DNA of 64,000 nucleotides. Source: Psammoneis japonica (taxonomy: Eukaryota). The notes under the pieces were generated by a model that worked only from the letters and a program-made list of their open reading frames with translations, had not been told where the DNA came from and ran no database searches. The position numbers were made by a program, and so were the translations under genes. Positions 1 through 21,905 of the stretch are shown here, one piece after another (within the stretch, counting starts at the first letter, position 1; every line of letters begins with the position of its first letter). Location of the stretch: NCBI GenBank assembly GCA_008632985.1, contig QPGO01000033.1:310001-374000 (forward strand). The letters are read 5' to 3'.

Positions 1-105
1 AGGACAGTTCTTTTTCACCTGCCCAACCTTGTCACATTTCCAGCATTTGATCTGCTTCTTCTTGCTTCTTGTTTTGCACAAAACTCACGCCTGCCCAAGC
101 AAGGC
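1..105 (-). mobile_element. Gag zinc-knuckle fragment (LTR retrotransposon remnant)
   Basis: Minus strand reads KQIKCWKCDKVGQVKKNCP, a degenerate CX2CX4HX4C. It resembles the knuckle at ~3055-3095. Confidence 0.65.
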
Positions 106-109
106 TCGT

Positions 110-1760
110 TGCTTGTCAGCATGCAAAGGAGCAGAACCCTCTTGAATGAACCCAAGTTCTCAAAGGACAGAATGAATGCACAAGACCCATTTGGCAGTGG
201 CACCAGCAGCACAGACCTTGGCTTCAGCAGAACTCACAGCAGTCACCACCTGTGTCTTGCAGCGATGCAAGGCAGCAGCACCACCAGCCAACATGAGGGC
301 ATGCCCAGCAGCGGGGTGCTGATTGCAAAGGGCAGCAGCTCCACATGTGACATCCAAGAAAGCATGGAGTTGAGTGAGAGTCAGAGGATGGGAGCTGGGG
401 CAAGGAATCTTCAAACTCAAGTTGCTCAAAAAGGAGCAGCAACGGCAATGTGTGATCCTTGGCAGGCTTCTTGCAGCTGATGCCCCAATGCTTCGTGCAA
501 CACAGATGCTGGGTGCAACACCTTTCAATGCCATGCAATGTGTCAAGGCTGGGTCAGAGGCAAACTTTGACAATGTGGCAATTGTGTGCCCAGTGTCAAG
601 GTGGCAGATGACATGTGCACCAAGCAATTCACCAAGCAGGTTGTGACACCCGACACCCAAAACCTTGTGCTTCTGCCAGCTCAGCATGACTGGGGGCGCC
701 TTTTGCAGGCCAACATCAGAGTGCAACTTGGAACCAAACTCAACAAGGAGAGGAGCAGCCTGGAAATCAGAGCCCAACTCATCTGCAACAGGTTTCAACC
801 CAGCAATGCAGCCATGACAAGCAACGGAAGTGTGGTCATTGCGCCGGTGGACATCCACACCATTGAACTCAGCACAGAGCCCCAAATGCTTCAAAGGCAT
901 TTCATCCTTGCCAGGGAGTCACAGTGGCTCACCAATCAAATTTTGAATCTTGATGGCAAATGATTCCTCCAGGCATGCAACTGAGAAGTCATCAACCTGT
1001 TGGAGGAGGAGAGCATGACACTTGCCATCAAAAGTCCCACAATGGGTGCACTTGTCATGAGCAGCACTCCAAAAAAGGAGTTTTGCATCTGCCAATGTTG
1101 TGCTGATGCGATTCTCCCACAGAGCACTGGACTCAGGGTGCCCCTGCAGAGCATGAAGGATGTCAGCAGTGCCGCAGATTGGCCCAGGTCAGTCTGGGCA
1201 CCAAAGTGGTCCTTGCACCATGTGGCATGGGCTTCATCTGCTTGGATGCAAACAGGGGCTGAGGGATGCAGGGAGTGGGCACACCCATTTCAGGCATTGC
1301 CAGAGTGGAGCCAGCAACTCAGAAACTAAGAGCACAAAAAACAGCCATTGAACAGGTTGTTCCATGCAAGAAGAATGGGCACACTGCAGGCAATGCAAAG
1401 CAGGAGCCGCTTGAGGAGATCCATCACAACAGCATTGAGAACAACGTGTGTCATCTGTCTTGATGTTGTGTTGCCAGTGGAGTTGCAATGCAACAGCACC
1501 TTGTGGATGGGGTGTTGGAGCACCAAACATTCCAAGTGCAGCTGTGAAAGTGATCAAGTTGCTTGAATTCAGCATTGTGCCAAAGGGGCCAAAATCTTGT
1601 GAGGTGCTGCAGGCAATTCCAAGTGAAGCCATCCAGCTCTTGTTCCTCTGGGTCACTGCAGACATGCAAGGGTGTGTTTTCAACTTGGGCGGTGCACTGT
1701 GAGGACAATTTGAGAGGTTCTCTGTGCATTTCTGTGAGACACACATTTTTGGCACCACTG
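110..1760 (-). mobile_element. Degenerate Ty1/copia (diatom CoDi-like) pol: reverse transcriptase + RNase H, frameshifted
   Basis: Minus-strand motifs in copia order: W..AEFKQLD, GMFGAP, CCDGSPQAAP, SSCMEQP, ALQGHPESSALWE (~1115-1152), LLLQQVDDF (QVDD at 999-988), LLGELL..VICHLD.G.TIATLSKF, then RNase H-like KTQVVTAVSSAEA. Confidence 0.9.
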
Positions 1761-3039
1761 ACAGCATTGAGCTCCTGTGTGGCAATGGAGCGTGACATCT
1801 GCAACACCAGCACTTGACTCACATCTCCAGATGTGCAAGGTGTTCTTGAAATGAAGCATGCTGTGTCATTGTTGGGGTTTTCAAGGTCAGAAGAGCAAAA
1901 CGTCATTGTTGCATTGCTGTCTGTGTGGGCTTCATTCTTGGCACAAAAAAGTTGGGTTGGCAACAACTTCTGCTTCACCAACACACCTGGTGTGCCACGT
2001 GTCATTAGCAGCATCTTCAATCTTCTCCAGCCCAGGTCAAATTCTTGCATCTCAGTTGACTGTGGCTTTCTCAATTCACACTCTGTCTCCATAAATTTGC
2101 ACCCACCATGAAAAAGATGCAACTTGTTCCTCCCAGCTGCTTGAGCCAAGCACTGTTGAACAACAAAGGCTCTGGAAGTGCATCATTGGCTGGCACCAGA
2201 TTGGGCCACACACAGACTCTCAAATTGTTGCCTTCATTCCACAAACAAACTGGGCATTCTTGTTGATGTCAAACAACCAAAGCTGTGCCTTGGCGAGCAA
2301 GGACAATGGTGACAGCTGTGGCTGCTTCAACATGGCTTCTTGCAGCAGTCATTTCCTGCATCTTCTCTGCCTTTTGAGCTTGTTTGCATGTTTGACTGGC
2401 CACGACAAGGGCATTCACCAGCCCAACACTTGACAGCTGCTTCAGCTGATTGAGCTCCTTGCATTTGATCATGAGCACACTTGCTCTCCCAGCAGCTTTT
2501 CTCATCTGGTCAGCACAGGATTTGAGCATCAGCAAGTCTTTTGAGAAGGCAGCCACAGCATTGATCAGCTGGAGTGTGAGATCATCTCATCAGATGGATG
2601 CAACAGCTGTGACTGTCCCTGAGGCACTGGCAGAGATTTTTCTTCACACTTGGATCCACTTGTGTGCGTGACAGCAACAGGGCAGCTGTTGCCTCTTGTG
2701 CACCTGCTCTGCACACAGCATCAATGTGAACAGCAGACAGAGAGCAAGTCGTTCCCAGCATCCAAGAACTTGAGTGCATTTGTGCAGCGCAAATTTCCAA
2801 AATGAGAGTGGCATTTCTAACATTCCTGACCTGAGCAGCATGCCACAATGCACTGGCCCCATCTGTGTGTGTCTTTCCTGCTGCCGCTTCTGCAGTGAAA
2901 GCACCCTGGTGTTCAAGTTTCATTTCTTGCCAAACAGCACACATTTGGTCTTGTTGGAAACCATGCTGCCCAGTGCTGCTGCTTTGACCACTCCACCAAT
3001 TCCCATGGCCTGCATCATCTGACTCTGCCAGCAAATGAT

Positions 3040-3480
3040 CATTGTCAAAACAAACCTTTTTTGCATGCCCAGCCTTGTCACATTTCCAGCATTGACTCTG
3101 CTTCTTCTCATTCTGTGCAACAAAACTTGCACCTTCAGGCTTCTTGATGGGCCAACACGGCCACACATGTGTCCAACACCTGTGTTGCCTCCTTGCCCAA
3201 ATTGGGGCAATTGTCAATCCCAGTGCAAACTGCCAGCGCACGTCTTTCAAGAAGTGCCAACATTCCTTGGCACCTTCCATTGGCAGTGCCACCAACAACT
3301 TGTTCTGTCTTTCTTCTGGGTGTCGTCCGCCGCGTCCTTGCTGAACCCAACTTCTTTCTTGGCAATTTCTTCTGGCATGAGTCTGTTGCAGGACCCTTCT
3401 CCACCATCTCAACAGTGCCCACATGAGCCAACTGCCCCTCTCCTTTGTCCTGACAAATGAGCACCAGCTGCCTCCAAGCC
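3040..3480 (-). mobile_element. Degenerate gag of an LTR retrotransposon
   Basis: LLVAL.MEGA...FLKDVR.QFALGIDNCP followed by the zinc knuckle CWKCDKAGHAKKVC. Frameshifted. Confidence 0.75.
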
Positions 3481-6400
3481 TCAGCAACCTCTGGACATTG
3501 TGAGGTGTGAGGGTGCACTCTCACTTGTTTGCATGTCAAACAGGATCAACTTAAGAGTTTTCAACAATGCCGCCATGCCCCACTCCTTTGCAACCATTGT
3601 CATGTCAACCAGGCTGCACACAGAACAACCAGGTGTCAGAGAAACAAACTGGTGTTGGAGGAAGCACGGACAGACTAAAAAGTGCTGGAGCTTCTCTTTC
3701 TTGCACATTCTGCTGCAAGACAAATGGGTGAAAGGCAGACAAAAGCTCTTTTGTGAGACATGCAGTTGATTGTGTGTGTTGCAGGTTCTCAAAGTGTGCG
3801 TCAAAGAAAAAAGATTGTGGCCAACAGGAATCATTCAGAATGTGTTGCAAGAGTCACAATTGGCATTTTGCATGGGGAAAAACACCAAATCGTGTGGAAA
3901 TGCACACCATGTCACACGAGAGGGTGATTGGAGCTGGTGACTTTTTGGGAACTCAATTGAAATGTCATCTGACCAAAGGCATTTTGACCCACATGGTAAA
4001 GAGCAACGCCTTTGGTCAGACATTTCAATTGATTTTCCAAGAAGTTGACATTTGAGTGCAGAAGGGCAGACAGATGGACAATGATCATTTCTGGCACTCT
4101 TCCACACAATTTCTACACAATGACTCTGAGAGCCACAATGATTCCTGTTGATGCCTTTTTTGGTGCAACCACTTGCATTTGAAGCAAGCCAGCAGCAAGT
4201 GCCACAGCACAGTGCTGGCCAATGGCCAGCAGCTTGACTCATCTTTTTTGGCTCCTGAGCACTTGTGTGCAGATCTTCCCCTCCAAACATTGTGAAAGCC
4301 CCCAGCTTGGCAGTGCCACCCAAGTGTTGCCTTTGGGGCATGTGAGTGGCTGGGGCTCTGGTCAATGGGCAGAAAGGGCACACCAAGCTGAGGTGGCTCC
4401 ATTGATGTGGCGCATGTGCAAGGTCACCTCATTTTTTTGTGGTCTTTCATTGTGAGCTCACCCCACACAAGTTGGCTGACAAGCCTGCTCCCTTTGAGTG
4501 GTTTGTTTTGGGTGTCTTTTCCTTCTTGGCTGGAAAATGGTGTGGCTGGCTCTCTTGAGTGACACAAGAAGCAGCTCTGGAAAAATGCAAAAGGCTGGCT
4601 GGCCACCAAAGCATGCGAGTGGCCAACACATTGAAAGCTGATGAAGATGCACTGGTGCTGGGGAAGGCATCTGGCATTGGAGAGTGGTGCCACGGCTTGC
4701 CAGCCAGTGTGCTTTTGGCCTCGCTGACCTCCAACTCACCACATGGCTTGCAAACATGTTTTTCAACTGGGCGCAGAAGCCAAGCAGCAAGCACAAGACC
4801 CACAACTCAACATGAGCTGCAAATGTGCAAATCCACCACATTTGTCAACAATCATCATCAGCACATTCTTTGCTGCAGCATTGTCTGCTGTCTGTCATGC
4901 AAAAACTGCCTTGCACCCCAATGTTCCAGCACATGAGCATTGCACACACAGTGTGTTGTCTCATGTCCAACAACCAATGGTTTGTTCACACTTTGTTTCT
5001 GCTGCACATGTTTTGGGTGTGTGTGAGTTTGAGGGGGGGTCTCTTGCATGCCATGACAATTTTGTGGCAAATGTGGGGATGATCCCCTTGACAGGTGATT
5101 GGAGCATGGGCAGCTGAGCAATTTTTTGGCCAGCACTCCACCAGCCATGCATGGCACAATTTTTCTGCAGAAACAGCACTGGTTGCATGATGGCACTCTC
5201 AACACACCAAATCATCTTTTGCAAGCAGGGCACCCACCACAAAATGTGCACATGGCTGTGTTTTGTTTTGACCTTCAAACAGGAGTGGTTGTCAAATTGT
5301 CAAAGCTTTGGCAAAAATCATCTGCTGTGTGTTGCAAAAAGTGATTTGTCATGATGGAGAACATTGGTTGCACAAAAACAACAACAATGTTGCAATGCTG
5401 ACGTGAGTCTTATTGGCATTGCAAAATGCCAAAATTTGGACAAAGAATCTGTGCTTTTGGTGTGGCGAAAGCTTGCTTGCAAGTGAGAAACCACACACAG
5501 AAATCACACAAATGTCTTTTTTCAGCATGATGCACTTGGTTTGCATGCAGCTGGAATTCATTGCTGCTGGGGTTGACACTTGCCACAGGACACCATCTGA
5601 GCAGCATGATGGCTGGCCGTGCATCAAAAAAGCACCTTGCTTCAATCACGAGGGCTTGGCGTTGTGGCTGCAAGTTTGCATGGCTTTTTTTCTGTTGGGG
5701 CAATTGCTGATTTGTTTGTTGCACTGAATGATTTTGCCATCAATCTTGTGCACAGAATTTTGTTGTGGGGGGCTGTGTCACACAGCAGCCTCCCACCCAC
5801 AGCCCCAATGCACATGTGTTTTTTCCACTTTCACATTTTTTGTGCACACTCCACTTCAACAAAAATGATGAGAACACAAACAAAGCAGAAATCCCTTGCA
5901 ACAGCCAGTTGAGCTGAAGCTTGTCTTTTGTTTCTGCTGGGCAGCAGCTTGCTGCACCAAGCCCCAGCACTGCAGCAGCATGCAAAATCACACCACTGCA
6001 CTGCCTGCCTTTTACCCTGCTCTTCTCACCCCAGCCCACACAGCACTGTGCCACACACCGCACATGCTTGCACCCCCTTTCCTTCACTCTTCCATGCCAC
6101 AATGTCAGCTGCACCTCTTTTTTTTCTCTGTGGTTGGTGTGCTGCTGCTGCCCCAATCAGAACCAGCTTTTTAACATGCTTGCACATTGAAAGCATCTGC
6201 CTTCTCAAAAGAGAGTTTGAGAGAAAAAATGAATGCAGCACAACAAAACACAAAGAACTGCACACACGCGCTGTGGGCTCTCACCTGAGTGGTGGAGCTT
6301 GGCCACCCACCCTGCCAAAGCTTGTCTTCATCTTGCCACTGCACACACACCTTGGTCACTCAAACTTGTTTGGACAAGCAACAGAAACAAAACAAATGCC

Positions 6401-7173
6401 CTGAGCTGAGCATCTTGAGAGAAACAATGAACAGGAAGCTTGACAAGGAACCATTTGAGAGGGTGCTCTCTTTTTGTGTGTGTTGCAACTCTTTTGTGAG
6501 AAAACACAAAATCATCACAACAGAAGACAACCAGCAGGGGGGCGGTCATCATCGGTGCTTGCAATGAAGGCTCAAAAACTTTGAGACAGAAACTTTGACC
6601 TGTTCTACAATGTGGAAATTCCTGCACTTAGTTTGGGTCACTTGACAGTTGCACACACCGAACTGCATGGTCTCACATGCCATGCAAGCTGCATTGGAAG
6701 GCATTCATTTGCATCAGTGTTGCCGCACACTGACACCCCACATCTGAAGTGTGCAGCAACATTGTTTGTTTCTGCCATCACAAAAATGCCAAAGATTTCT
6801 TGGATGGGATTGTGACGAAAGTGGAGCTGAGACCTCATGATTGGCAAGACACAGATTTCTTCTGAGTTTCCAGCTCACCAAAAAAGCTGTCACAAAGAGG
6901 AAACGGTGTGTCCCAAACACATGGCAGGAAACTGCCGGCTGTGGTCATGAGGGAGTGCTGCTAGCATGTACGATATCCAGAGGCCGCTCAGGGTGAATTG
7001 CTTGTTAATTGCTACCTCGAGATTTTGCCCCATGAACAAACAATTTTGGTCCTGATGGAGAGAAGGCTCGTGATTAGAGTGGGAACGAGAGTGCCAATGA
7101 CGTTGAGTTATTGGCTCGTAAAACACTAGCTAGAGTAAAACTTGTCGAGCTGAGTTAACCCTGAAAAGACATT

Positions 7174-10120
7174 CTACTTCTGCATTGAATTGCGTTCATC
7201 TTCGTGATACTTTATATCAAGCCTTTGCCCCCCAAAAGGGAAGCCGTCTGTGCGAGTAACATCGAATATTATTCCAGGGCGCTGAAATGACACATACCTA
7301 TACGAAGTGCAATTGCAAAAGAAAGCCAGAGACAGGTCAGGTAAATGAGGAAGAGTGGCAATGAACAAGAACGTTTAGCTAAACAAACCAGAAAGCAAAA
7401 CCCACACTTACATGTGCATATTATCTGGAGAGAAAGCCAATCCTGTTGTCTCGCCTATGTAAGACTCACTGTTAAACAATACGAATAGAAGCAGCAAGAG
7501 GCAGGTCAGTGAAAAAGACAGGCACAATAGATCGAAATGCATTCAGTGATTCTGTCGTACTCGTGTGACTCGAGGATAGTGTAAAGCTTCCCGTTTATAT
7601 CTCGCCCGTGAACTCCACAAGTACCCTTCTTACCCCCATCCTCACAAAAATATAGAATGGCGCTTTCGTCATCTCCTAGCAGTCTCGCGACTTGATCGGG
7701 ACCATTGTCAAAAGCGCCGGACTTCGTCGAAGACCTTTCAAACCTTTGTTCATCCAGATCCAAAATAAATAGCGACTTATCCTTTTTGCAAGTAAAGTAC
7801 AAAATTCCTTGCCTCACGTCGATGCCTTCGCAGTTCTGGGAATAGTTGAAGGCGCTTTCGCGCCCTTTATCAAGGTTTTCAGTCCAATAAAACGAGCCTT
7901 TGTCTTGGTCCGACTCGCGGGGCAAAAGCACGAGATATTGCAGTCTTGCTGTGCCAGTCTGGTTTGTATGCAATAAGTTACTGTAATCCGGGGGATCCGT
8001 TGCCAATGCTGTTTTAATTGCTTTCTGATCTGGTACGTACTTCACAACTGGTCCGTTGATCTCATCCGTCGTAACGAAAAACGACGGATTCCAAATGTCG
8101 CGGTTGTCATATGCTGCACTCTCATATTTGGCACCAGCTCCACCCAACAACGTTTGTCTCGCCACTCTTTTCCCTTTCGGGTCAACCTCCCAAACCTGAC
8201 CTCCTTCGTCTTCTTCACAAGTCAGAAATGAACCCCACCAAGTCTTGCCCCCTCCGCAGTTTCGCCGAGTCAATCCATCAACGATCTTTTCATAGCGAAC
8301 AACGTCGCCGTTGCTATTGAATGTTATGGCACCCACTCCGCCTATAGGGGAAGGAATACAAAATATTGAAAATTGAAAAGTCCGGGACGAGGTTTCCCTC
8401 ACAGTGTAGCGGAATAGATTCGTCAATGATACATACCATTCTTGGTGCTTTCGGCGTTCGAAACATAGATCCACCCGCCGCTCTCTTCGTCAGCAAACAC
8501 TGCCGCTCCGTCTGGGTCCTCATGCATGTCGACGTCCGATTCTCCGCCATTACCATATTGTACCTTTTGGTCTTTTATTGCAACTATCTTTGCCGTCAAT
8601 CCAGTCGAAAGTAAAAGTCCATTTTCGATCAACGATCTATCCCCCGGTATGTATGAAGCCTTGGGACTTATTTGATTGCTTTCACCGCCAATCTTGACAC
8701 AGTAGTCTATCCCAGAAATGTCGCCATTCCCACCAATGTTGCACCCATCGACCACTTCATCAGTCGTTCTAGAAACACACACGAGGCCTGGCTTACAGTT
8801 CTCGTCATTTCCTTCGCAGTTGCCTTCGCACCGTCTGCACCGAGACCACTCCTTGCACTTATTTTCTTTAATTCGAAGGGGCCGATTACGTACCGTGCTG
8901 ACTGGCTTGTTGAGTTGTTCGTTGGTTGGCGGTGAAGTTGATGTGATAGGCTTAGTCGTTGGTGAAGGTGTCGCCATTTTAGTAGGAGAAGTGGATCCTG
9001 GCTTGTTGAGTTGTTCGTTGGTTGGCGGTGAAGTTGATGTGATTGGCTTGGTCGTTGGTGAAGGTGTCGCCATTTTAGTAGAAGAAGTGGATGGTGGCAC
9101 CGTCACAACAACTGCAGTCGACACTGTTGTAGGCGTAGCTGTGGAATTTTGGGGTGGCTCCGTTGGTTTTGGTGGGACGACGCAATACCTTACTAATTCC
9201 ACACCTGTGCCCACACAACCGGGGATTTCGTCATTCGCGTTCTCTCTTTCATGACACTCGAGATTACCACGACAATCATCACTTTGTCTACAGGATCCTT
9301 GACATTCACCCAACGGGAAAGCTTTAGCTGGTTGCCCTCCAAAGCCTTGTACCACTAACATGTTCGGCTTCGTTGGTCTCGTACAAAAGTCACTGCCGAG
9401 GATCGCTTCTTCGGAAATGCTCCCTTGACATCCAGGGACTCTTTCATTTATTGGAGGGACACATACGAGCCCGAAGTCGCACTCGATGTCGCTTCTACAT
9501 GAGCCCTCGCAAAGCCCTAGAGGAAACAGCTCCGGATTGCTAGTAGAATTCCCAATGTAAACCACACTCACCAACTCCGTCGTAACTGGAGAGGTCGGTG
9601 TAGCTGTCGGTTCTTGTTGTGTTTCAGACGGAGCGCCAGTAAAAGCCAATGTCGGGGATGCTCGTGTCGGCATTGATGACGACAATGATGCTTGGGTTGG
9701 AGTTGATGATCGATCTTGTGATGAGGAGGGCGCTTCCGTCGAGGACGGCTTATCCGTGGAAGAGGGCACTTCCGTCGAGGACGGCTTTGCCACGAAAGAG
9801 GGTGCTTCCGTCGAGGACGGCCTTTCTGTGAAGATTCCCGTTGATGATGGAGCTTCAGTTGTTATGTTTCCTGTGGACGGAGCTTTTGTTTCTACTTTTT
9901 CGCCAAATGGTGTGATTGGCTCAGGAGCGGAAGTTGGCGGGACTGACGATGGTACTACTTCATCGGACGACGAACCCTTGAATGTGTACCATAGAACGCA
10001 AAAAGTCCCAGTAAAGAAGAAGATTAGAACGACATAAAGGGTATATCTTCTCTCAAACAAGAACTTTTTGACCGCAACTGTTCGTCGTTGCTTGCTGCTC
10101 GATTCTTGTTGTCCTGTCAT
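7174..10120 (-). CDS. Membrane-anchored PhoX-like (DUF839) alkaline phosphatase with Ser/Thr/Pro stalk and three frustulin-like Cys-rich repeats; about 4 exons
   Basis: N-terminal TM helix and S/T/P-rich stalk. Repeats CEGSC, CQGSC and CEGNC. PhoX-type motifs PDGAAVF, YVSNAE, NCGGGKTWWGSFLTCEE, ETTGLAFSPD and YVSFQ. GT-AG intron at 8436-8342 joins in frame; further introns near 7555-7472 and 7411-7298. Confidence 0.85.
8903..9082 (-). repeat. Intragenic tandem duplication (~93 bp x2) encoding KMATPSPTTKPITSTSPPTNEQLNKP
   Basis: Two near-identical copies visible in both DNA and protein. Additional PSSTEAPS-type repeats at ~9720-9830. Confidence 0.9.
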
Positions 10121-11919
10121 GGGGACGCTTCTCTGATAAGTTTACTGTAGCGTAAATGAGGGATACAAAACGCTGACCGTCAAATTACTCTAATACCGCC
10201 GCGTTGGTCGTGGCGTGACTTTCATGCGATTCGCCGGTGAGTGATTAACAAGGTCATCATGGATCAGGACTCCCGAAATTGTGAGACCAATTTGCACGCC
10301 ATAGGAGACATTAGTTGGGTCATCTTTCTCGAATCCACGATGACCTTTGATTGAACATCCTTCAGCTTCTTATGCTGATAACGTTGAATTTCATTTTTTT
10401 TGAAATTTTTAATCCTATTATGCCCCAGACATTTCACGGGCGTTTCACGTTGCCTCGGCAGAATGTTGGTGGAAACAAAGAGGAGAGAGGAAGATTGAAG
10501 AGAGGAAGAAAGAAAAGACAAAATGAAGAAGGAAGGGGGGATTGCTGTGGGGGAAAGAGCATGTTTGAGTTGTGCTCCAGCAGTGGACAAACAAAAGCTT
10601 TCAAAAGGGGGAGAAGTTTGCAGCTGACAAATCAACAAAGAAAAACTCTGCGAAACAAAAAAGGGCAGGCCGAGAGCAAGAAATAAATTCAACCAGATCT
10701 CACTGGCAATTCACCCTGTTGGTTTGTCAATGAAACCAAGCTTGACCTTCTTGACCCACATGAAAAATGAGCAGAACATTGGGGAGAAAGAGATGAATCC
10801 AACCTCGACATCACCAAAAAGACAAAAGGCCTCGTTGGCTCTGCAAAAAAAGATGGCACGCGGTGTTTCTCCTCTGGAGATGAGTTTCATTCCAGCAGGT
10901 GAGACACACACACACATGGAGGTAGGACATTCTTGCACCCATCCTTCTTTTGGAACCTGTGACCATGCATTTTGTGCCAGCAAATCTTGTTCTTGATGCT
11001 CTTTCCCCAGCAGCTGTTGTTTTTCATTGTGCTTCTTTCATTGAAATCCTGTCCGCTGGTTTGAAATGTGATGGCCATTGATTTTTTTGCTTGGAAAATG
11101 TGGACAACAACAAAAAAGTCTTCAGGAGGAGTTGATTTTTGGTGTGATGAGCAAATGATGGTTCAGCACATGTTGCTGTTTTTCAGGTGCATTTTGCATG
11201 TTGTGAGCCTTCTGAAGAGCACTTGTGTGCACGGTCTAACTTGGGATTTGGTGCATTTCCCTTGAAAGATGGCACAGAGCTAAGTCTCTGAGTCAATTGG
11301 AGTTGGCTCTGGATCTTTCTCCTTTGGCATCTCCAGTCCTGGTGGGCTGCTCTGCTCAGGGGAGGATGGTCATTGGCTCAGTTTTCTGTCACTCCAGCAT
11401 CCATTTCTCCTGCTCTTCCAGTCCCCAGTGAATTCTGGCTGTGCACAGTTGCTGTCTTTGCCCATGTGGGAGTTTTAGCCATTTGTGGATCTTACCTTGC
11501 ATGTTTCAGTTTTTGAAGTTGTGGGTTCTTCCTTGTTGTGCACATGTGCACAGCAGCAGGAGATGATCATGGTCTGCCAGTTGTTCGATTTCAAGGCACT
11601 TTTGGTTGAACCCTTGCCATTGATGGAGCTCTGATTGCCAACTTTGCTGGGCTGGTGTTAAAGTTTAGGCCCTTGCCTCATCATGCAGAGCTGCACAGCC
11701 TTCTTCCCTTTCTTTGGCTTCTTTTTTGGTTGATGGAATTTTGTGTTTTTGTGTGTTTTCTCGACCCAAACTGTGACAACTTGTTTTTGGTCAGAAATGC
11801 TTCTAACTTTCATTCCTTGCCCCCAACATCCAACAATTGGGGAGTCATCAGACAAAGACAGTGATTGATGTCATTGGTGTCATGTTTCAAACGTGCTTCT
11901 TGCACCCGCCGAGCGCTTG

Positions 11920-12125
11920 GGGGTGTCCTGAATGAGACATTCCTTGCAACAAATGACAAAGCTGTCAACAGCAGGACAGTTGGGCACTTCAGTTGATGTG
12001 CATTGGGTCAAGGGTTGTCAAAATGATGAAGTCCTTTGTGAGCATCTTTCCTCTCCAGCCAAACTGAGTGTTCAAGCTGACAAGTTGGTGAGCAGCCAGA
12101 TGCCAAAGTTTGCACCCCCGGGGGA
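11920..12125 (+). mobile_element. LINE RNase H fragment (copy 1)
   Basis: VDVHWVKGHQNDEVLCEHLSSPAKLSVQADKLV matches the RNase H C-terminal pattern WVKGHQ...N..AD.LA. Confidence 0.7.
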
Positions 12126-12442
12126 TGGCAGGTGGTGATGGTTCAGTTGTTCAATTTCAAGGCACTTTTGGTGAGACCCTTGCCATTCTTGACAAAGCTC
12201 TGACTGCTGATTGTGCTGGTCTGGTGTTTGGGTTCAGACCCTTGTCTCATCATGCAGAGTCATGCAGCCTTCTTTCCTTTCTTGGCTTCTTTTTTGACTG
12301 ATGGAATTTTGTGATTGGGTGTTTCCCCAAGAAGGCTTGGACTTGCACTGTGACAACTCATCTTTGGCCAGACATGTTTCTGACTTTCATGCCTTGCCTC
12401 AGCACCCCAAAGATGGGGAGTTGTCAGACAAGGATGACAGTG

Positions 12443-12465
12443 ATCATCATCATCATCATCATCAT
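12443..12465 (+). repeat. (CAT)n microsatellite; shorter copy at ~16748-16764
   Basis: Direct reading of the sequence. Confidence 0.9.
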
Positions 12466-12499
12466 GTTTGGCAAATGTGCTTGCACCACAGAGTGGAGG

Positions 12500-14160
12500 A
12501 GATGTCCTGAATGAGACATTCCTTTCCTTGCAGCAAATGACAGACCTGTCAACAGCAGGACAATCAGGGTCTTCAGTTGATGTGCATTGGGCCAAGGGCC
12601 ATCAAAACAATGAAATCCTTTGTGAGCATCTTTCCCCTCCAGCCAAACTGAGTGTTCAAGCTGACAAGTTGGTGAGCAGCCAGATGCCAAAGTTTGCACC
12701 TGGGGGATGCTCCATTGGCACGTTGCACATGCCTTCACTGCTCTGCAAACTTGGTCATCTAAGATCCATTGGCTGCATCAAAATGCAAGTTGGTGCTTCA
12801 GTTGTGTGAAGCCTCCAGTCTGGCCCTGTGGCAGTGTGTGAAAGAGAACAAGTGTGTGGCTGGTCAAATGAAATTCTTTTCAACTCAATTGATTGGTCTG
12901 CCTGCTCAAAATTGATGACCCACAGCATTTGCTGCAAAGTGAGCACAGTCAAGCATGTTCAAGATCTGCTGCCTGCAAACAAAATCATTTGCTCCTGTCA
13001 CAACCTCACTTGCCCTGACTGCTCCTGCATCCATGGCCAACATCCAATGGAGGATGTCAATCATGCACTTTTGGCACCCCCCAATGAAGCCAATGAGGTC
13101 CACTGTGAGTCTCTTCCCCTCCAGCCAAACTGAGTGTCCAAGCTGACAAATTGAGAAGTGGATGCCAAGGTTTGCACCTGGGGGATGCTCCATTGGCGTG
13201 CCTCACAAGCCTCACTGCTCTGCAAATTTGGTCATCCAAGACCCCTTGGTTGTGTCAAAATGCAAGTTGGTGCTTCAGTGTGAAGCTTCCAGTGCAGCCC
13301 TGTGACAGTGTGCAAAAGAGAAGTGTGGCTGGTCAGACAAAGTTTTTGACTCAATTGATTGTTCTGTTCACTTGAAGTTGATGTCCCCCAAAACATTTGC
13401 CGCAAGGTGAGCACAGCCAAGCTTGTTCAAGATCTGTTACCTGCAAACAAGATCATTTGCTCCTGTCACAACCTCACTTGCCCTGACTGCTCCTGCATCC
13501 ATGGTCAACATCCAATGGAGGACATCAATCATGCACCTTGGCACCCCCCCCAATGAAGCCTGGCACATGGAGTTTCTTCAAGGCTTGTGCAAGAAGCACA
13601 GCTGATGACGTTCACACTTTGCCATCCCCACACAACATCTTGCTCTTGCGCAGCCTTGAGTGCTGGCTTTGAGAGGAGATGCTCTGCTCTGACAATCTCC
13701 ATTGTGATGTTCTTGCCATGCTCAATTCTCAGGGCAGTGATGGTTGGCACCACATGTTCAGTGGACATTTTTCTTGTTCTTTTGAAATGAAACTCAGTGG
13801 CTGCATCTGCTGGCTGGCAGCTTGCATTCCACTCTCTTTTGACTGGCAATCAACAGCTGAGTTCTTGGGCCACTGTGATTGGCAGCTTCATTTGGTCTCA
13901 ATTGTGGGGCACTTTGTGGGGTTCACAGAACGACAACATTCATGGTGGAATGGCTCCAAAACAAGGAAGTCATTTCAACACAAGATGCTGAGGCAGAAGC
14001 CAAAGCAATTTGTTCCAGGGCTGACAACTGCTTTGCAAAGGACAGGCCTCATTTGTCAGATTCAGTTGGTGAGCACCTTGCTCATTTCATGCATTGATTG
14101 TGCATCTCTGGTGCACTGGCTGTGGCTGAACTTTTGTGCCAAGGTCAAGCATCTATGATG
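12500..14160 (+). mobile_element. Degenerate non-LTR retrotransposon ORF2 3' part (RNase H + C-terminal zinc-binding region), with internal duplication 12620-13100 / 13100-13560
   Basis: HWAKGHQ...ADKL; GWSNEILFNSIDW; KHVQDLLP...CPDC...ED.NH; SQ...GWHHMFSGHFS; IWSQLW..LWGSQNDNIHG. This motif order is typical of diatom LINE C-termini. Confidence 0.8.
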
Positions 14161-16799
14161 CTTGGTGATTTGCCAATGGAGACCAGTGTGCCATTGCAAG
14201 TTGTTTTGGCACCACATCACCCAGTGGCAATGCCAGTCATGGGCCATGGCCAGTTGTTGCATGCTCCTGCCACATGCTGTGCACTGGGGGTGTGGGCCGG
14301 CTTGTTGTCAGAGTTGCATGGTGGAAGTGCAGCAACACCTTTGCACCAAAACAGATTTTTGTTTTTTTTTTAAGGTGCATTTGAGAGCAACCATTTTTTG
14401 CCATTTTTTTTTTTCTAAATCTCTGCACTTTTCATTGTGTCAAGTGCTCACACCATTGAAAAATGAACGGTGTTTCAGCGTCATGTTCTTTTGCCCAAAA
14501 AGGGAAGCTGGTTTCACACATGTGTGCTGTTTGCACAGCAATTAGCTGCATCAAGATTGCCCTGTTTGTGGGAGCCTTCAGCAAGTTCCACAAGAGTGTG
14601 ATGCCACACCTGCTTGGAACAAAGCAAAATTGCTGTGCAACACTTGAGTGTGTTGCTCATGCACCACTTTGCAATCTTGGACCTGCTGCACTTCACACCC
14701 AGGTTTCTCAATGTCTTGGTGTGTGCACTCAAAGCTGATCACCAAGTCAACCTTTTGTTCACACCAACAAACTGTTTTGTGCTCACACTGGCTTGCCATG
14801 AAAAAAGAAGCATCATCAGCAACATCATAAAGTGCAGATGACCCACCACAAAAAATGCACCAATGCATCACAAAGACATGTGTTGTCTTCATCCAGTGTC
14901 AAGTCAACAGAGCCAAGTGTTGCAAAGAGCCCCGCACTTTGCAATCCGAGGAAAAGCAAAAAAAGAGGCACCACAAACTGTGGTCATGAGCAAAAAGCAA
15001 AAAAGCTTTTTTTGTGAGAAACTTTTTTGTGTGAGATCAACAACTTTTTGTTGTGAGCACCCATGAGGGCAGTGCCAGCAAAGTGGAGAGCAGTGCATGA
15101 CAGCATCAAAGCAAGAGTTGAAAAAGGCTTGACAATGATTGGCACACAGCAAGAACAGCAAGGGCAATCTGAGACAACACCTTTCCTCTCACACACACCA
15201 ACATGCCCTGGGCCTGCTGCGTCTTCTGACATGCACTTTGTTTGAGAGAATTTTCTCAAAGCACTGTGCACTGCAAACTGCAGGCTGCTGCAGCTTGTGG
15301 GAGAGGGGTTGGTGACTGGGCACACTTGTTTCTCATGCGTTGGTGCTGCATGGCAGCTGATGTGCTTTGTGCCATGAAAAACTTCACAGTTTCCTGCAAA
15401 CAGCACCCAGCTGCTCACTGCTCACTCCATGCCCACGCCAGTGTGTGGTGTGTGGTGTGTGTTCTTGCTTGTGGTGTGGTTGTTGGCACAGTTTTGACAA
15501 AGAGCATGGCAGAGCTCTGAGGTTGAGAGACCATGAGGCAAAGCATTTGGGGTTTGAATTTCACTGCTGAGAATGTTCCAAGAGTTGGCTTTCCCAATGG
15601 ATGGGTGGTCAGAGTGAGAGTCATCCACACTGTGCTGTGCTGCATGATGGCGCGGCATGAATGCAGCAGCACCGGTGTGGCAACTGCTTGCCACGATAAA
15701 TTTCAAGCCTTGTTTGAGGCAGCACGATTTTTTGTTTGTCTGCAATTCTGATTGACATTGAAATGTGACTTTCATCATTGAACAATGCACAAATGCTGTG
15801 TTTTAACACAAAATGAGTGTGACCACCAAAAAGATGCACATTTTGTTGACAGACTTTCCCCAACAAGATCTGTTGCCATTTTTCATTTTGCTTCATCTTT
15901 CCTCAGACATCTGTCTGCTGGTTTGAAAAGTGATGGTCCTCATTTTTGCTGCTTGGACAACAAAAGCAAAGTCTTCAGGAGCTGATTTTTGGTGTGATGA
16001 GAGAACGAAAGTGTGGGGCATGATGTTGCTGTTTTCGGGCACTCTCTCCTCTACTGCACCAACATGTTGTGAACCTTCTGAAATGCACTTTTGTGCACAA
16101 CACCCAACTTGGGATTTGTGGCACATTTCCCTCAAAAGATGGCACAGCTGAGTCCCTGCATCACTTGCAGTTGTCTCTGGATCTTTTTCCTTTGGCATCT
16201 CCAGCCTTGGTGGACACTGCTCAGGGGATGATGGTCATTGGCACCTCAGGTCTTTTGTCACTCCAGAAGCACCCATTTTTCCAACTCTTCCAGCCTCCAG
16301 TGAATTCTGTGCCTGGCTGCTGTGTTTGCCCAAGTGGGGGTCTTTGCCATTTGCTGATCTCACCTTGCACATTTCAGCTCTTTTTTTAAATTGTGGGTTC
16401 CTTGTGTTGTGTGCTCACATGCAACAGCAGGTGGTGATGGTGATGGTTCAGTTGTTCAATTTCAAGGCACTTTTGGTGAGACCCTTGCCATTCTCGATGA
16501 AGCTCTGACTGCTGATTGTGCTGGTCTGGTGTTTGGGTTCACACCCTTGTCTCATCATGCAGAGTCATGCAGCCTTCTTTCCTTTCTTGGTTTCTTTTTT
16601 GACTGATGGAATTTTGTGATTGGGTGTTTCCCCAAGAAGGCTTGGACTTGCACTGTGACAACTCATCTTTGGCCAGACATGTTTCTGACTTTCATGCCTT
16701 GCCTCAGCACCCCAAAGATGGGGAGTTGTCAGACAAGGATGACAGTGATCATCATCATCATCATGTTTTGCAAATGCACTTGCACCACAGAGTGGAGGA

Positions 16800-17600
16800 G
16801 ATGTCCTGAATGAGACATTCCTTTCCTTGCAGCAAATGACAGACCTGTCAACAGCAGGACAATCAGGGTCTTCAGTTGATGTGAATTGGGTGAAGGGCCA
16901 TCAAAACAATGAAATCCTTTGTGAGCATCTTTCCCCTCCAGCCAAACTGAGTGTTCACGCTGACAAGTTGGTGAGCAGCCAGATGCCAAAGTTTGCACCC
17001 GGGGGATGCTCCATTGGCATGTCGCACATGCCTTCACTGCTCTGCAAACTTGGTCATCTAAGATCCCTTGGTGGCTGCATCAAAATGCAAGTTGGTGCTT
17101 CAGTCGTGTGAAGCCTCCAGTCTGGCCCTGTGGCAGTGTGTGAAAGAGAACAAGTGTGTGGCTGGTCAAATGAAGTTTTCAACTCAATTGATTGGTCTGT
17201 CCACTCAAAATTGATGACCCACAGCATTTGCTGCAAAGTGAGCACAGTCAAGCGTGTTCAAGATCTGCTGCCTGCAAACAAGATCATTTGCTGTTGCAAC
17301 CCTGCTTGCCCCAACTGCTGCATCCACTGCCAATGTCCAATGGAGGACAGAAGAGAGACATCACACACTTTGGCGCCCCCTGCAATGAAGCTTGGCATCA
17401 GTGGCCTTGGGTGCTGGGTTTGAGATGATGTGCTCTGCTTGTCTGACAATCTTCATTGAGATGTTCTTGCTGTGTTCAATTCTTGTGAAAGTGCTGGTTG
17501 GCACCACACATTCAGTGGACGTTTTTCATCTTCTGGGAATGAAAATCAATGGCTGGTTGCATCTTCTGGTTGGTGGTTTGCACTTCACTCCCTTTTTGCT
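16800..17600 (+). mobile_element. Further degenerate copy of the LINE 3' region
   Basis: NWVKGHQ...ADKL, FNSIDW, DLLP...CPNC and GWHHTFSGRFS. Near-identical to 12500-12990 in its first half. Confidence 0.8.
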
Positions 17601-18169
17601 GGCAATCATTGGCTTCAGAGTGTGGTTGTTGATGCAAGACACACAAAAACATGGCTCGGTGCTTTTTGAGCATCAACATTCTTGCATGTGCTTGGCACTG
17701 CTGAGCACATGTGACATGTGAAAATGCATGGAAAACCTTGCAATTTGTCAAAAGGTTTCTCACCCAGAATGAAAACACATCTGGTGCTTGTTGTTGGAGG
17801 CAACTGCTGTGCTGCCATCTTTGCTGTCCATTCTTTGCACTGACATTGTTCAAAAAGAAGCCAGCCACAACAGAAGCACACCAACTTGCCAGCTTTTGCA
17901 CCATGCAATCAAACACAACAGTGTGAAAAGTGGAGGCTGCAGAGCTGCAATGTTTCACACAAGAACCGCCAGACATTGCTTGAAATGGGTCAGAGACAAT
18001 GCAACTGCAGGTTGCTGCTCTGAGCTTGGCACATGCAGCACCCTCAGCAGCAAGGGCAATTTGAGTTTTGTGAACTCGGTTCAGCCCATTTTGTTGCAGC
18101 ATGGGATGCTTTTGCTTTTGCTGCTCTGGTTGCCCCAGGTGTTGACCCATCATTCAAAGCGCAGCCAGC

Positions 18170-18765
18170 TCTCCAAAACTTTTTGCAAAGAGAGTTGCAA
18201 ATGGCTTGACAATGACTGACATGTGGCAACAGTGAGGGCAATTTGAGACAACACCTTTCCTCTTGCACACAACATGCCCTGCCTCTTCTGACATGCACTT
18301 TGGTTGAGGCAAGAATTTTCTCAAATCAGCGCACTCTTGCACTGCAAACAGGCGACTGCTGCAGCCTTGCGGGGGAGGTGTGAGCGATTGGACACAGTTG
18401 TTTCTCATGAATCCATGCTGCATGACAGCTTGTGTGCTTTGTGCCATGAAGAACATCAGCTTCCTGCAAATGGCACCCAGCTCACTCCACACCCCCGATG
18501 CCAGTGTGTGTGCGTGGTGTGAGTGTTCTTGCTGTGGCGTGGTGGCTGGTGCAGTTTTGGCAAAGAGCACGGCAGAGCTCTGAGGTTGAGAGACCACGAG
18601 GCAAAGCGTTTGGGTTTTAATTTCACTAAGAATGTTCCAAGAATTAGTTTCACAGTGGACGGGGGTGATCGGAGAGTCCGCATTGTGCTGCAAACAACGG
18701 CTTGCCACCGAGAATTTGAAACCTTGTTCGAGACGGCACGATCTTTTGTCTATCAACAACTCTGA
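18170..18765 (+). pseudogene. Eroded unknown ORF with nearly intact 3' end; more eroded paralog at ~15050-15751
   Basis: Frame ends ...GRALRLRDHEAKRLGFNFTKNVPRISF...FETLFETARSFVYQQL*. Upstream in-frame TGA stops. A homologous copy lies ~3 kb upstream. Confidence 0.5.
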
Positions 18766-18972
18766 TTAAAGTTAAAATAAGACTTTCATTTATTTAATAT
18801 TGCACGAATATTTTAATATAAAATGAATACGACACAATGCATTGTTTCGACATTTCGTCGGTTCTGTTTGAAATTTCTCGGCAACGGTCACAAACTAACG
18901 AAGGCCTCAATAATTTTCTCTTGGTCTTTCATCACAAATTCGTCTCGACAACAACCCGCACCACCTCTCACG

Positions 18973-19125
18973 ATGTCGACTCTCTCCAATTCAGCACCGA
19001 ATCTCACAAACAATGGTTCCACAACCAATGCTTCCGTTAAAAAGCAGCTATCGGCTCCCAGTATACGTCGACAGCCATTGGGGAGCTTGAACGTGAACGC
19101 ATCGAAAGGCGCACCATTGGCAACC
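18973..19125 (+). CDS. Possible first exon of an unknown protein with a D-box-like motif (RQPLGSLN)
   Basis: ATG at 18973, S/N-rich peptide, GTAAGT donor at 19126. Downstream exon not identified. Confidence 0.3.
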
Positions 19126-19566
19126 GTAAGTTCCGTGTGTCCTGTGTTCAAACGACTATTTTTACTGTTCTTCGAGTTTGCATGTTGTATTTTATGTCTC
19201 TGTTAAATGTTGGGTTCGCACGGCGATATTGAATTATCAACACTGAACTGTATTCAAAACGATGATATTTCTTCAAATGGTCAACGGATGCTATGTAGAC
19301 ATACGGTTGGTAATTTTTTTCATATCTTTCGAATTTTGAGTTCGATCTCGCCAACCACGGACAGTACAGGATTCCCACGGCATAGTTTCTACTATCGGAT
19401 TTTTGTACATTTCTTGCGCGGGAACGGGATTAGTTTTCCGTTCCACGAATCTTTCCCTCGCCAAATTTTTGAAGTGCTTCTTGATCGTGTTTGCACCTCT
19501 CCGCGTCTTTTTCCACTCACTTTCCCCATTTTGTTTCTCCCACCGATCGTGATACCTTTCATCAAA

Positions 19567-21821: not shown

Positions 21822-21905
21822 ACCATCACATTTCGTGCCGTCTGTTATCCCCCCTCCATCACGTTTCGTGTGCCGTCTGTTTTCTCCCCTCCATCACGTT
21901 TCGTC
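21822..21905 (+). repeat. Short tandem repeat (~34 bp, ~2.5 copies; CCATCACRTTTCGTG core)
   Basis: Direct reading of the sequence. Confidence 0.8.

What the first reader, a model, noticed from the sequence alone, without database searches (positions are those of the whole stretch)
15530..18835. Internal before/after pair showing the direction of mutation
Seen: the copy at the block edge (~18590-18835) keeps TA and CG, while its paralog inside the block (~15530-15835) has TG/CA at the same sites. Examples: TTGTTCGAG/TTGTTTGAG, GTCTATC/GTTTGTC, GATTAAAGTTAAAATAAGAC/GATTGACATTGAAATGTGAC, GCACGAATA/GCACAAATG, TTTTAATATAAAATGAATACGAC/TTTTAACACAAAATGAGTGTGAC and CCACGAGGCAAAGCG/CCATGAGGCAAAGCA. Inference: the edge copy is closer to the ancestor, so TA->TG, TA->CA, CG->TG and CG->CA all occurred.
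Basis: seen in the sequence. Interest (0 to 1): 0.85.

Follow-up and report, generated by a model that had tools for sequence, protein, structure and literature searches.

The report
TA-destroying hypermutation of diatom transposons
Two copies of one repeat, one inside and one straddling the edge of a transposon-derived block, show that this diatom's DNA lost nearly all TA and CG steps by conversion to TG or CA, and the TA part of this mutation process appears to be undescribed.

Summary

**The window.** It is nuclear DNA of a pennate diatom. Two transposon-derived blocks, 1-6960 and 10460-18617, are almost free of TA and CG and are enriched in TG/CA.

**The pair.** The 0.72-kb repeat A (15079-15884) lies inside block 2. 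Its paralog B (18155-18879) crosses the block edge at about 18617.
- Beyond the edge, 18 of B's 26 aligned TA/CG sites are TG/CA in A.
- None of B's 29 aligned TG/CA sites is TA/CG in A.

**Independent tests of direction.**
- The TG+CA excess matches the TA+CG deficit.
- TG-versus-CA discordances dominate double mismatches between in-block paralogs, with none in a control pair.
- Normal Copia proteins have Tyr and Arg where the block copy has His or Cys codons.

**The same TA signature elsewhere.** A Copia family in microbial-mat metagenome contigs shows it without CG loss.
- The edited A sits in 5'-TAY-3', on either strand.
- It arose after integration, because the two LTRs of one element differ mainly at TA sites.
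- It is limited to the element.

**Reading.** This is a RIP-like, transposon-directed hypermutation with a new specificity (A:T to G:C at TpA), plus separate CpG decay in this genome. The enzyme is unknown. Six full-text searches found no description.

The parts
1..6960 (-). Block 1: TA/CG-free relic of a Copia-type LTR retroelement, which runs off the window start.
   Evidence: Dinucleotide counts. Last TA-free position. A gag-like CCHC knuckle in ORF 2582-3520(-). The reverse transcriptase/RNase H part is listed below.
163..918 (-). ORF from the Copia polyprotein (C-terminal RT to RNase H part), hypermutated. It has no Tyr at conserved Tyr columns.
   Evidence: 146 hits in the representative library, best E = 8e-23, matching around residues 1150-1400 of 1300-1600-aa polyproteins. 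A profile search returns PF07727 RVT_2 proteins. Tyr->His/Cys and Arg->His/Cys.
6961..10459 (-). Island of normal composition between the blocks. It holds a host gene: ATG at 10120, 565-aa first ORF, then a PhoX-like ORF at 7506-8489.
   Evidence: The block edge lies about 340 bp upstream of the ATG and about 545 bp beyond the last ORF.
10460..18617 (.). Block 2: TA/CG-free and made of repeated, non-coding, transposon-like units.
11001..13852 (+). Unit copy 1, with internal partial duplications. It is a paralog of 15854-17608.
   Evidence: BLAST self-comparison. TG<->CA discordances.
15079..15884 (+). Repeat copy A, wholly inside block 2 and fully converted.
15854..17608 (+). Unit copy 2, lying between A and B.
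18155..18617 (+). Repeat copy B, inner part. All TA are gone but 11 CG are kept (about half the normal density).
18618..18879 (+). Repeat copy B, outer part. Normal composition (15 TA and 10 CG in 218 bp).

Best explanation
Copies A and B are two copies of one 0.72-kb repeat. A lies inside, and B straddles the edge of, a transposon-derived domain that has undergone a DNA-level, post-integration hypermutation directed at transposons. The process turns the two self-complementary pyrimidine-purine steps, TA and CG, into TG or CA. Those products are no longer targets, so conversion runs to near completion.

**Two separable components (shown).**
- Component (i): TpA -> TpG/CpA, an A:T->G:C transition. 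The changed A lies in 5'-TAY-3', on either strand, site by site.
- Component (ii): CpG -> TpG/CpA.
- Component (i) occurs alone in a related Copia family from metagenomes. In the window it is faster and more complete than (ii).

**Inferred.**
- Component (ii) is deamination of methylated CpG in silenced transposons.
- Component (i) is enzymatic. The most likely route is deamination of adenine to hypoxanthine in duplex DNA at TAY, possibly via a modified adenine. An equivalent route is a mutagenic modification of the T in RTA on the other strand.
- The process is directed to transposon or heterochromatic DNA and stops at the promoters of expressed genes. That would explain why the last 220 bp of B escaped.
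For: **Reality of the sequence.**
- Public-run contigs match the window at even word depth across the edge. One 3361-bp contig covers 17224-20584 with 0 differences at depth 62.8. A 2993-bp contig lies inside the block with 1 difference at depth 68.
- TG and CA are interleaved at full depth.

**Direction.** The evidence is.

**Composition.**
- Base composition is unchanged between block and normal DNA.
- Odds ratios, block against normal: TA 0.03 vs 0.60, CG 0.13 vs 0.98, CA 1.92 vs 1.17, TG 1.81 vs 1.12.

**The TA component stands alone elsewhere.**
- 12 of the 146 homologues of the block ORF have 0-1 Tyr in 131-333 aa, against a median Tyr content of 4%. They carry Cys or His at conserved Tyr columns.
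- A metagenome scan gave 151 relatives, of which 80 loci were kept.
- Against the consensus of 37 TA-normal copies, L047 keeps 6 of 107 TA sites (60 TG, 34 CA). It keeps 77 of 99 CG, like normal copies.

**Rates in 7 independent TA-poor copies.**
- A in TA -> G: 0.38. T in TA -> C: 0.26.
- Other A -> G: 0.041. Other T -> C: 0.047.
- By trinucleotide: TAC 0.46, TAT 0.38, TAG 0.19, TAA 0.16, all others 0.02-0.09.

**Same context rule in the window.** Of the 34 TA that survive in the blocks, 28 have a 5' pyrimidine and 26 a 3' purine. The expected share is 44% for each (p = 6e-6 and 2e-4).

**After integration.**
- The two LTRs of the element in L055 (3007-3207 and 11116-11316) differ at 12 sites.
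- Nine of those sites are TA against TG/CA.
- Eight of the nine are polarised as TA->TG/CA by two outgroup LTRs.

**Limited to the element.** L055 has 8-19 TA per 400 bp upstream of the element and 3-11 inside it.

**Reproducible.** The same TA-poor copies were assembled from different samples: L054/L055 at 99.96% identity, and L063/L065/L064.

**Edges near genes.** The block edges lie about 340 bp and 200-350 bp upstream of the start codons of flanking genes.
Against: - No enzyme, modified base or chromatin mark was seen. Every step of the chemistry is inferred.
- No third copy of the A/B repeat was available. The outgroup tests use other parts of the blocks or another transposon family.
- The organism behind the metagenome family is not established. 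Its RT is 57% identical to a Nitzschia inconspicua RT. A flanking kinase-like ORF says only 'eukaryote'.
- A high-copy element with about 70-bp inverted ends at 20548-22097 has word depth around 3000 but normal composition. Repetition alone therefore does not trigger the process.
- The unmutated outer part of B is itself duplicated. A purely homology-triggered process should have hit it.
- B could be a recombinant between a mutated and an unmutated copy, rather than marking a true edge of the process.
- The run that supports the sequence is probably the assembly's own source.
Confidence: 0.8

Rival explanations
1. The blocks are a sequencing or base-calling artefact. Under this view, modified bases at TpA and CpG in silenced DNA are read as the other pyrimidine, so TG/CA is not the true sequence.
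For: - Both targets are palindromic steps that are typical of DNA modification.
- The only run that holds the stretch comes from a single study and may be the assembly's own source.
Against: - A strand-specific miscall would give two half-depth versions, all-CA and all-TG. Instead one version with interleaved TG and CA has the same word depth as normal DNA (62.8 and 68). A single contig crosses the edge without a difference.
- In-block paralogs share most TG/CA choices (94-98% identity).
- The same signature appears in separate metagenome assemblies.
Confidence: 0.03
2. The direction is reversed. TG/CA would be ancestral, and the outer part of B would have gained TA and CG, for example by a RIP-like CA->TA process.
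For: A two-copy comparison cannot give polarity on its own. Fungal RIP does create TpA.
Against: - Protein outgroups show Tyr and Arg as ancestral.
- Discordances of TG against CA between in-block copies.
- The outer part of B has the composition of the other 45 kb of normal DNA.
- TG->CG would need T->C, which RIP does not make.
- Consensus TG/CA sites almost never read TA in the metagenome family: 0-6 per copy.
Confidence: 0.02
3. The editing happened before integration, on transposon RNA or cDNA (ADAR-like A-to-I, or APOBEC-like on cDNA). The edited copies were then inserted.
For: - A-to-G with a 5' T preference resembles ADAR neighbour preferences (recalled).
- Two TA conversions are shared by both LTRs of L055 relative to the L064 LTRs. 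This could be inheritance from an edited template.
Against: - The two LTRs of one element differ mainly at TA sites.
- A and B differ in the same way.
- TG and CA outcomes are interleaved at random on both strands: the runs test is not significant in 7 of 7 copies.
- Block 2 spans several different sequences and ends inside a repeat.
Confidence: 0.05
4. This is passive decay. The organism's ordinary mutation spectrum is strongly biased against TA and CG, and old neutral transposon DNA simply shows it.
For: - 'TA-normal' copies also show a mild excess at TAY: 0.075-0.081 against 0.014-0.056 elsewhere.
- CpG decay by methylation is ordinary.
Against: - Flanking non-transposon DNA on the same contigs keeps normal TA.
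- In the L055 LTR pair, 9 of 12 differing sites are TA sites.
- In the 'young' in-block pair, 16 of 37 mismatches lie in 8 TG/CA discordances.
- The edges are sharp to within tens of bases.
- Copies of one family range from 94% converted to unconverted at similar divergence elsewhere.
Confidence: 0.07

Closest known systems
Repeat-induced point mutation (RIP) of Neurospora and other ascomycetes
   Same: - Directed at transposons or repeats.
- Acts on genomic DNA after integration.
- Transitions only, in a fixed dinucleotide context, on both strands.
- Can approach saturation and leaves sharply bounded, gene-poor blocks.
- Diatoms carry DNMT4 enzymes that group with the fungal RID protein and whose function is unknown (PMC9998398, passages read).
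   Different: - RIP changes C:G to T:A, mostly at CpA, and so creates TpA and AT-rich DNA (abstracts listed).
- Here A:T goes to G:C at TpA, TpA is destroyed, and base composition stays the same.
- A high-copy element close by is untouched.
- A link to a sexual phase or to RID was not testable.
CpG (TCG) hypermutation and methylation-driven CpG decay of transposons, as in basidiomycetes, animals and plants
   Same: The CG->TG/CA component. CG after T is the most depleted class: 17 left of about 269 expected, against 15-21% left in the other classes.
   Different: - It does not explain the TA component.
- The TA component occurs without CG loss in L047 and others. Other copies (L037, L041) show CG loss without TA loss.
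- That basidiomycetes prefer TCG is recalled, not taken from a call.
ADAR hyper-editing of double-stranded RNA
   Same: The base change is A to G, and a 5' U/T neighbour is favoured (recalled).
   Different: - The substrate here is genomic DNA after integration.
- The 3' pyrimidine rule (TAY) and near-total conversion are not ADAR features.
- The belief that ADARs are confined to animals is recalled, not tested.
Polymerase eta errors at WA motifs in immunoglobulin somatic hypermutation
   Same: A to G at TA (recalled).
   Different: - AA is not affected. AAN rates are 0.030-0.057, against 0.38-0.46 at TAY.
- AA is not depleted in the window blocks: odds ratio 1.24 against 1.12.

Membership tests
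RIP (fungal repeat-induced point mutation) | C:G to T:A transitions | tested here: not met
   The dominant component is A:T to G:C at TpA. Only the CpG component is C to T.
RIP (fungal repeat-induced point mutation) | CpA preference, giving a gain of TpA and AT enrichment | tested here: not met
   The TpA odds ratio falls from 0.60 to 0.03, CA/TG rise, and G+C is unchanged.
RIP (fungal repeat-induced point mutation) | Confined to duplicated DNA | tested here: inconclusive
   - For: the blocks are transposon relics, and in L055 the domain matches the element.
- Against: the duplicated outer part of B and the high-copy element at 20548-22097 are unmutated.
RIP (fungal repeat-induced point mutation) | Needs RID or DIM-2 and acts before meiosis | not testable with these tools
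   No genome is held and there are no experimental data.
Methylation-driven CpG decay | CG to TG/CA, limited to methylated (transposon) DNA | tested here: met
   The CG odds ratio is 0.13 in blocks against 0.98 in normal DNA. B's CG sites correspond to TG or CA in A. Methylation itself was not tested.
Copia-type LTR retrotransposon (block 1 relic) | RVT_2 reverse transcriptase and a gag zinc knuckle | tested here: met
   - Homologues are RVT_2 (PF07727) proteins. The matches lie in the C-terminal part of 1300-1600-aa polyproteins.
- A CCHC motif is present in 2582-3520(-).
- Pfam itself gave no hit on the mutated ORFs.
LTR pair (copies A and B) | Terminal TG..CA, target-site duplication, primer-binding site and polypurine tract | not tested
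   Only the repeat itself (0.72 kb, 3.07 kb apart) was established. Whether A and B are LTRs or a segmental duplication remains open.

The most novel reading that the evidence does not exclude
Pennate diatoms possess a natural mutator that acts on adenine (or its paired thymine) in duplex genomic DNA at 5'-TAY-3'. It is aimed at transposons as a genome defence. It would be the A:T->G:C counterpart of fungal RIP, driven by an unknown DNA adenine deaminase or a modification-dependent pathway, and it is independent of cytosine methylation.
Probability: 0.4. Interest if true: 0.95.

Novelty: new variant of a known kind. Interest (0 to 1): 0.88.

Why it matters
Every described transposon hypermutation system acts on cytosine (RIP, CpG/TCG decay, APOBEC) or on RNA (ADAR). 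A heritable, near-saturating A:T->G:C process at TpA in genomic DNA would be a new mutational chemistry in nature.

- It would be a new form of genome defence in a major group of algae.
- It could point to a natural enzyme that edits adenine in double-stranded DNA.
- It has practical consequences for annotation. It erases Tyr codons and the TAA/TAG stops, so hypermutated relics give long spurious ORFs, escape Pfam and word-based searches, and hide transposon content.
- The A/B pair, the LTR pair in L055 and the graded copies of the metagenome family offer ready-made material for measuring the process.

Tried and rejected
**Searches and look-ups that gave nothing**
- The whole genome is not held, so there is no genome-wide map and no search for candidate enzymes.
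- No third copy of A/B was found in the window, by BLAST or by purine/pyrimidine-recoded BLAST.
- Pfam gave no family on nine block ORFs.
- A word-based protein search with the mutated ORF gave none of 1492 candidates at E <= 0.001.
- The first locus search could not use alignment A1. The scan with A2 then found no relative among 178 pattern matches.
- Four look-ups of earlier findings returned nothing relevant.
- Six literature searches found only fungal RIP, CpG or unrelated papers.
- The diatom retrotransposon paper PMC2806351 has no passage on hypermutation or dinucleotides (term search only).

**Analyses that were uninformative**
- No strand-coordinated tracts were found.
- No strand skew of TG against CA was found in the blocks: 1779 against 1734.
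- No complete TA-normal element with both LTRs was found to serve as a control LTR pair.
- A feature search on a flanking ORF of L055 gave only 'eukaryotic kinase-like'.

**Not available**
- No RNA holder was listed for the stretch.
- Run X3 held none of the stretch, and X2 held only parts of 19408-21000.

**Hypotheses rejected**
- Biased gene conversion toward GC was rejected, because CG->TG/CA goes the other way.
- Selection against TA/CG was rejected, because the changes destroy conserved Tyr and Arg codons.
Full report
**1. The observation**

The six example string pairs are at the stated coordinates.

The two stretches belong to a direct repeat. Copy A is 15079-15884 and copy B is 18155-18879, 3.07 kb apart.
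- BLAST gives 73% identity over 723 columns.
- Identity rises to 87-90% when only purine against pyrimidine is scored, so most differences are transitions.

The window has two long blocks with almost no TA or CG (counts per 500 bp).
- Inside the blocks: TA 0-5 and CG 1-9.
- Elsewhere: TA 8-39 and CG 12-46.
- The positions of single TA and CG sites place the blocks at 1-6960 and 10460-18617.
- Copy A is wholly inside block 2. Copy B crosses its right edge.

In the part of B beyond the edge (250 aligned columns):
- 14 aligned TA correspond in A to TG 7, CA 4, GA 2, TA 1.
- 12 aligned CG correspond in A to TG 3, CA 4, other 4, CG 1.
- B's TG/CA sites are kept in 24 of 29 cases and are never TA or CG in A.
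- The asymmetry, 18/26 against 0/29, has p = 1e-8.

The pair is older than a clean before/after pair. 29 of the 48 mismatches are ordinary changes.

**2. What the region is**

The 888-aa HEAT-repeat gene at 27714-30380 has its best relatives at 63% identity or less. Its named relatives come from Nitzschia, Pseudo-nitzschia, Cylindrotheca, Seminavis and Fragilaria. The window is therefore nuclear DNA of a pennate diatom. The normal part carries ordinary eukaryotic genes.

Block 1 is a relic of a Copia-type retroelement on the minus strand.
- It has a gag-like CCHC knuckle.
- ORF 163-918 has 146 homologues, which match the C-terminal part of 1300-1600-aa polyproteins.
- Its profile relatives are PF07727 (RVT_2) proteins. 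The best named one is from Nitzschia inconspicua.

Block 2 is made of repeated non-coding units.

Between the blocks lies a 3.5-kb island of normal composition that holds a host gene.

The block edges lie about 340 bp upstream of that gene's ATG. On the right, the edge lies 200-350 bp upstream of the next gene's candidate ATGs.

Composition:
- Base composition is the same in blocks and normal DNA.
- Odds ratios, block against normal: TA 0.03 vs 0.60, CG 0.13 vs 0.98, CA 1.92 vs 1.17, TG 1.81 vs 1.12.

**3. Is the sequence real?**

Contigs of a public run match the window.
- One 3361-bp contig covers 17224-20584, across the edge, with no difference, at word depth 62.8.
- A 2993-bp contig inside the block has one difference, at depth 68.

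A strand-specific misreading of modified bases would give two half-depth versions, all-CA and all-TG. It would not give one full-depth version with TG and CA interleaved.

The run may be the assembly's own source. Independent support therefore comes from section 5.

**4. Direction of change**

No third copy of A/B is in the window and no genome is held. Three other tests were possible.

(a) Discordant outcomes. If copies lost TA/CG independently, the same ancestral site should often read TG in one copy and CA in the other.
- In six in-block paralog pairs, TG opposite CA accounts for 6/18, 19/55, 12/28, 8/19, 12/20 and 8/11 of adjacent double mismatches.
- That totals 65 of 151. A paralog pair in normal DNA (23263/23902) has 0 of 31 (p = 4e-7).

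(b) Protein outgroups. I used the 134 columns where three normal Copia homologues (P0268-P0270) agree.
- The 11 Tyr columns read His 6, Cys 4, Ser 1 and Tyr 0 in the block ORF.
- The 7 Arg columns read His 4, Cys 2, Ser 1 and Arg 0.
- The codons are CAY and TGY, exactly TAY or CGY changed by one transition.
- A consensus of 28 homologues gives the same picture: 10 Tyr columns read C 4, H 3, other 3.

(c) Budget. With the window's normal DNA as expectation, the blocks lack 1311 TA+CG and have 1369 extra TG+CA. The same comparison split by flanking bases does not correlate (r = 0.003). I therefore use only the total.

**5. The same process elsewhere, and what it shows**

Tyr-poor homologues.
- Among the 146 homologues, 8 have no Tyr and 4 have one Tyr in 131-333 aa, against a median of 4%.
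- The ten I looked up all come from ENA assemblies.
- At conserved Tyr columns they carry Cys or His.

Metagenome loci.
- A scan of metagenome contigs with two of these proteins (A3) found 151 relatives. 80 loci (327 kb) were kept, from contigs named as microbial-mat metagenomes.
- Most copies have normal TA (4-5%) and normal CG (4-5%).
- 12 of the 80 loci have under 3% TA with normal CG, for example L047 at 0.61% TA and 4.64% CG.
- L037 and L041 show low CG with normal TA.

Alignment and classes.
- I aligned the 55 loci whose match to L053:1-3975 was 1500 bp or longer. The other 25 were left out.
- 37 copies with TA of 3.75% or more were called normal, and 13 with TA under 3% were called poor. 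Five intermediate copies were left out of both classes.

Against the consensus of the 37 normal copies:
- L047 keeps 6 of 107 TA sites (TG 60, CA 34, other 7).
- It keeps 77 of 99 CG sites, like normal copies.
- Other poor copies are partly converted.
- Consensus TG/CA sites read TA in only 0-6 cases per copy.

Rates in seven poor copies (six near-duplicates were dropped):
- A in TA -> G 0.38, and T in TA -> C 0.26.
- Other A -> G 0.041, and other T -> C 0.047.
- CG rates are equal in poor and normal copies.
- By trinucleotide, pooling strands: TAC 0.46, TAT 0.38, TAG 0.19, TAA 0.16, all others 0.018-0.090.
- The edited A therefore sits in 5'-TAY-3'.

The window obeys the same rule. Of the 34 surviving TA in its blocks, 28 follow a pyrimidine and 26 precede a purine, where 44% is expected for each.

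Pattern along the copies.
- TG and CA outcomes alternate at random: the runs test is not significant in 7 of 7 copies. There are no strand-coordinated tracts.
- Converted and unconverted sites cluster in L063 (p = 0.026) and L040 (p = 0.018). In both, the 3' part of the element is untouched. This parallels the unmutated end of copy B.

The process acts after integration. In L055 the element's LTRs are at 3007-3207 and 11116-11316. They differ at 12 sites in the shared core.
- Nine sites are TA against TG/CA.
- Eight of the nine are polarised as TA->TG/CA by two outgroup LTRs from L064. One is ambiguous.
- One site is a CG-derived TG/CA discordance, one is TG against CG, and one is a transversion.

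The process is limited to the element. TA is 8-19 per 400 bp in the 3 kb upstream and 3-11 inside.

The same poor copies recur in assemblies from different samples: L054/L055 at 99.96% identity, and L063/L065/L064.

**6. Two components**

The TA and CG components occur separately in the metagenome family (section 5).

In the window:
- B's inner part (18155-18617) has no TA but keeps 11 CG. At 6 of its 8 aligned CG sites, A has TG.
- CG also survives more often near all three edges.
- Overall, 34 TA and 116 CG survive in 15.1 kb.
- The TA component is therefore the faster and sharper one.
- CG after T is the most depleted class: 17 left of about 269 expected.

**7. Mechanism**

Shown:
- The changes are DNA-level and post-integration.
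- They are limited to transposons.
- They are transitions at TAY and at CG, on either strand, site by site.
- They end in TG/CA, which is no longer a target.

Inferred:
- CpG loss by deamination of 5-methylcytosine in silenced transposons. Diatom transposons are methylated, and DNMT4 enzymes related to fungal RID exist in diatoms with unknown function (PMC9998398, passages read).
- TA loss by an enzyme. The candidates are adenine deamination to hypoxanthine, possibly after adenine modification, or a mutagenic modification of T in RTA on the other strand. The sequence data cannot tell these apart.
- Restriction of the process by chromatin, because the edges sit just upstream of genes.

The rivals are weighed in their own sections: artefact, reversed direction, RNA or cDNA editing, and passive decay.

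Polymerase-eta-type WA mutagenesis is unlikely, because AA is not affected.

**8. Comparison and novelty**

The process works like fungal RIP. However, it fails RIP's defining features of base change and context, so it is not a member of that family.

Six full-text searches found no description of TA-to-TG/CA hypermutation. For those papers I saw only listings and abstracts, apart from passages of PMC9998398 and a term search of PMC2806351. The library omits most subscription journals, so prior description cannot be excluded.

**9. Limits**

- There is no whole genome, no RNA data, no chromatin or modification data, and no third copy of A/B.
- The host of the metagenome family is unknown. Its RT is 57% identical to a Nitzschia inconspicua RT.
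- Whether A and B are LTRs is open.
- B could be a recombinant copy.

Noticed in passing
window 20548-22097: An element of about 1.55 kb with roughly 70-bp inverted ends (20548-20617 against 22097-22018, 78% identity). Word depth is near 3000 against about 63 for single-copy DNA, so there are dozens of copies. Its TA/CG content is normal although it lies 2 kb from block 2.
   Followed up: partly
window 14190-14338: A short piece inside block 2 has very high word depth (766 on average, up to about 3600). Other copies continue into different flanks, some of which contain TA and CG. It may be a high-copy family that is itself TA/CG-free.
   Followed up: no
window 18155-18617: A transitional zone at the block edge. 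All TA are converted, but CG survives at about half the normal density. CG is also less depleted near the other two edges (6500-6960 and 10460-11300).
   Followed up: partly
window 12131-13056 and 16436-17349: A young duplicate inside block 2 (94% identity, 97% when only purine/pyrimidine is scored). 16 of its 37 mismatches lie in eight TG/CA discordances. This suggests that conversion was still going on after the duplication.
   Followed up: partly
L037, L041, L068, L069: These copies of the metagenome Copia family have low CG (2.2-2.9%) but normal TA. This is the opposite of L047, so the two kinds of loss vary independently.
   Followed up: no
L063 (about 4000-4750) and L040: The converted tract stops inside the element and leaves its 3' part with TA intact. 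This parallels the window's copy B.
   Followed up: partly
window 8902-9093 and 23269-24365: There is a tandem 96-bp repeat in the Ser/Thr/Pro-rich island gene. There is also an internal duplication of about 640 bp in the 909-aa thioredoxin-domain gene. Both have normal composition. The second served as my control pair.
   Followed up: partly
window 18823-20052: Two ORFs in the same frame are separated by a single stop codon at 19204-19206. A short intron in the gene that borders block 2 is likely.
   Followed up: no
blocks 1-6960 and 10460-18617: With TA gone, TGA is the only stop codon left in all six frames. Long spurious ORFs arise, with no Tyr and rich in Cys and His. Public protein sets already contain such Tyr-free 'proteins' (P0174, P0227, P0124 and others).
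   Followed up: yes
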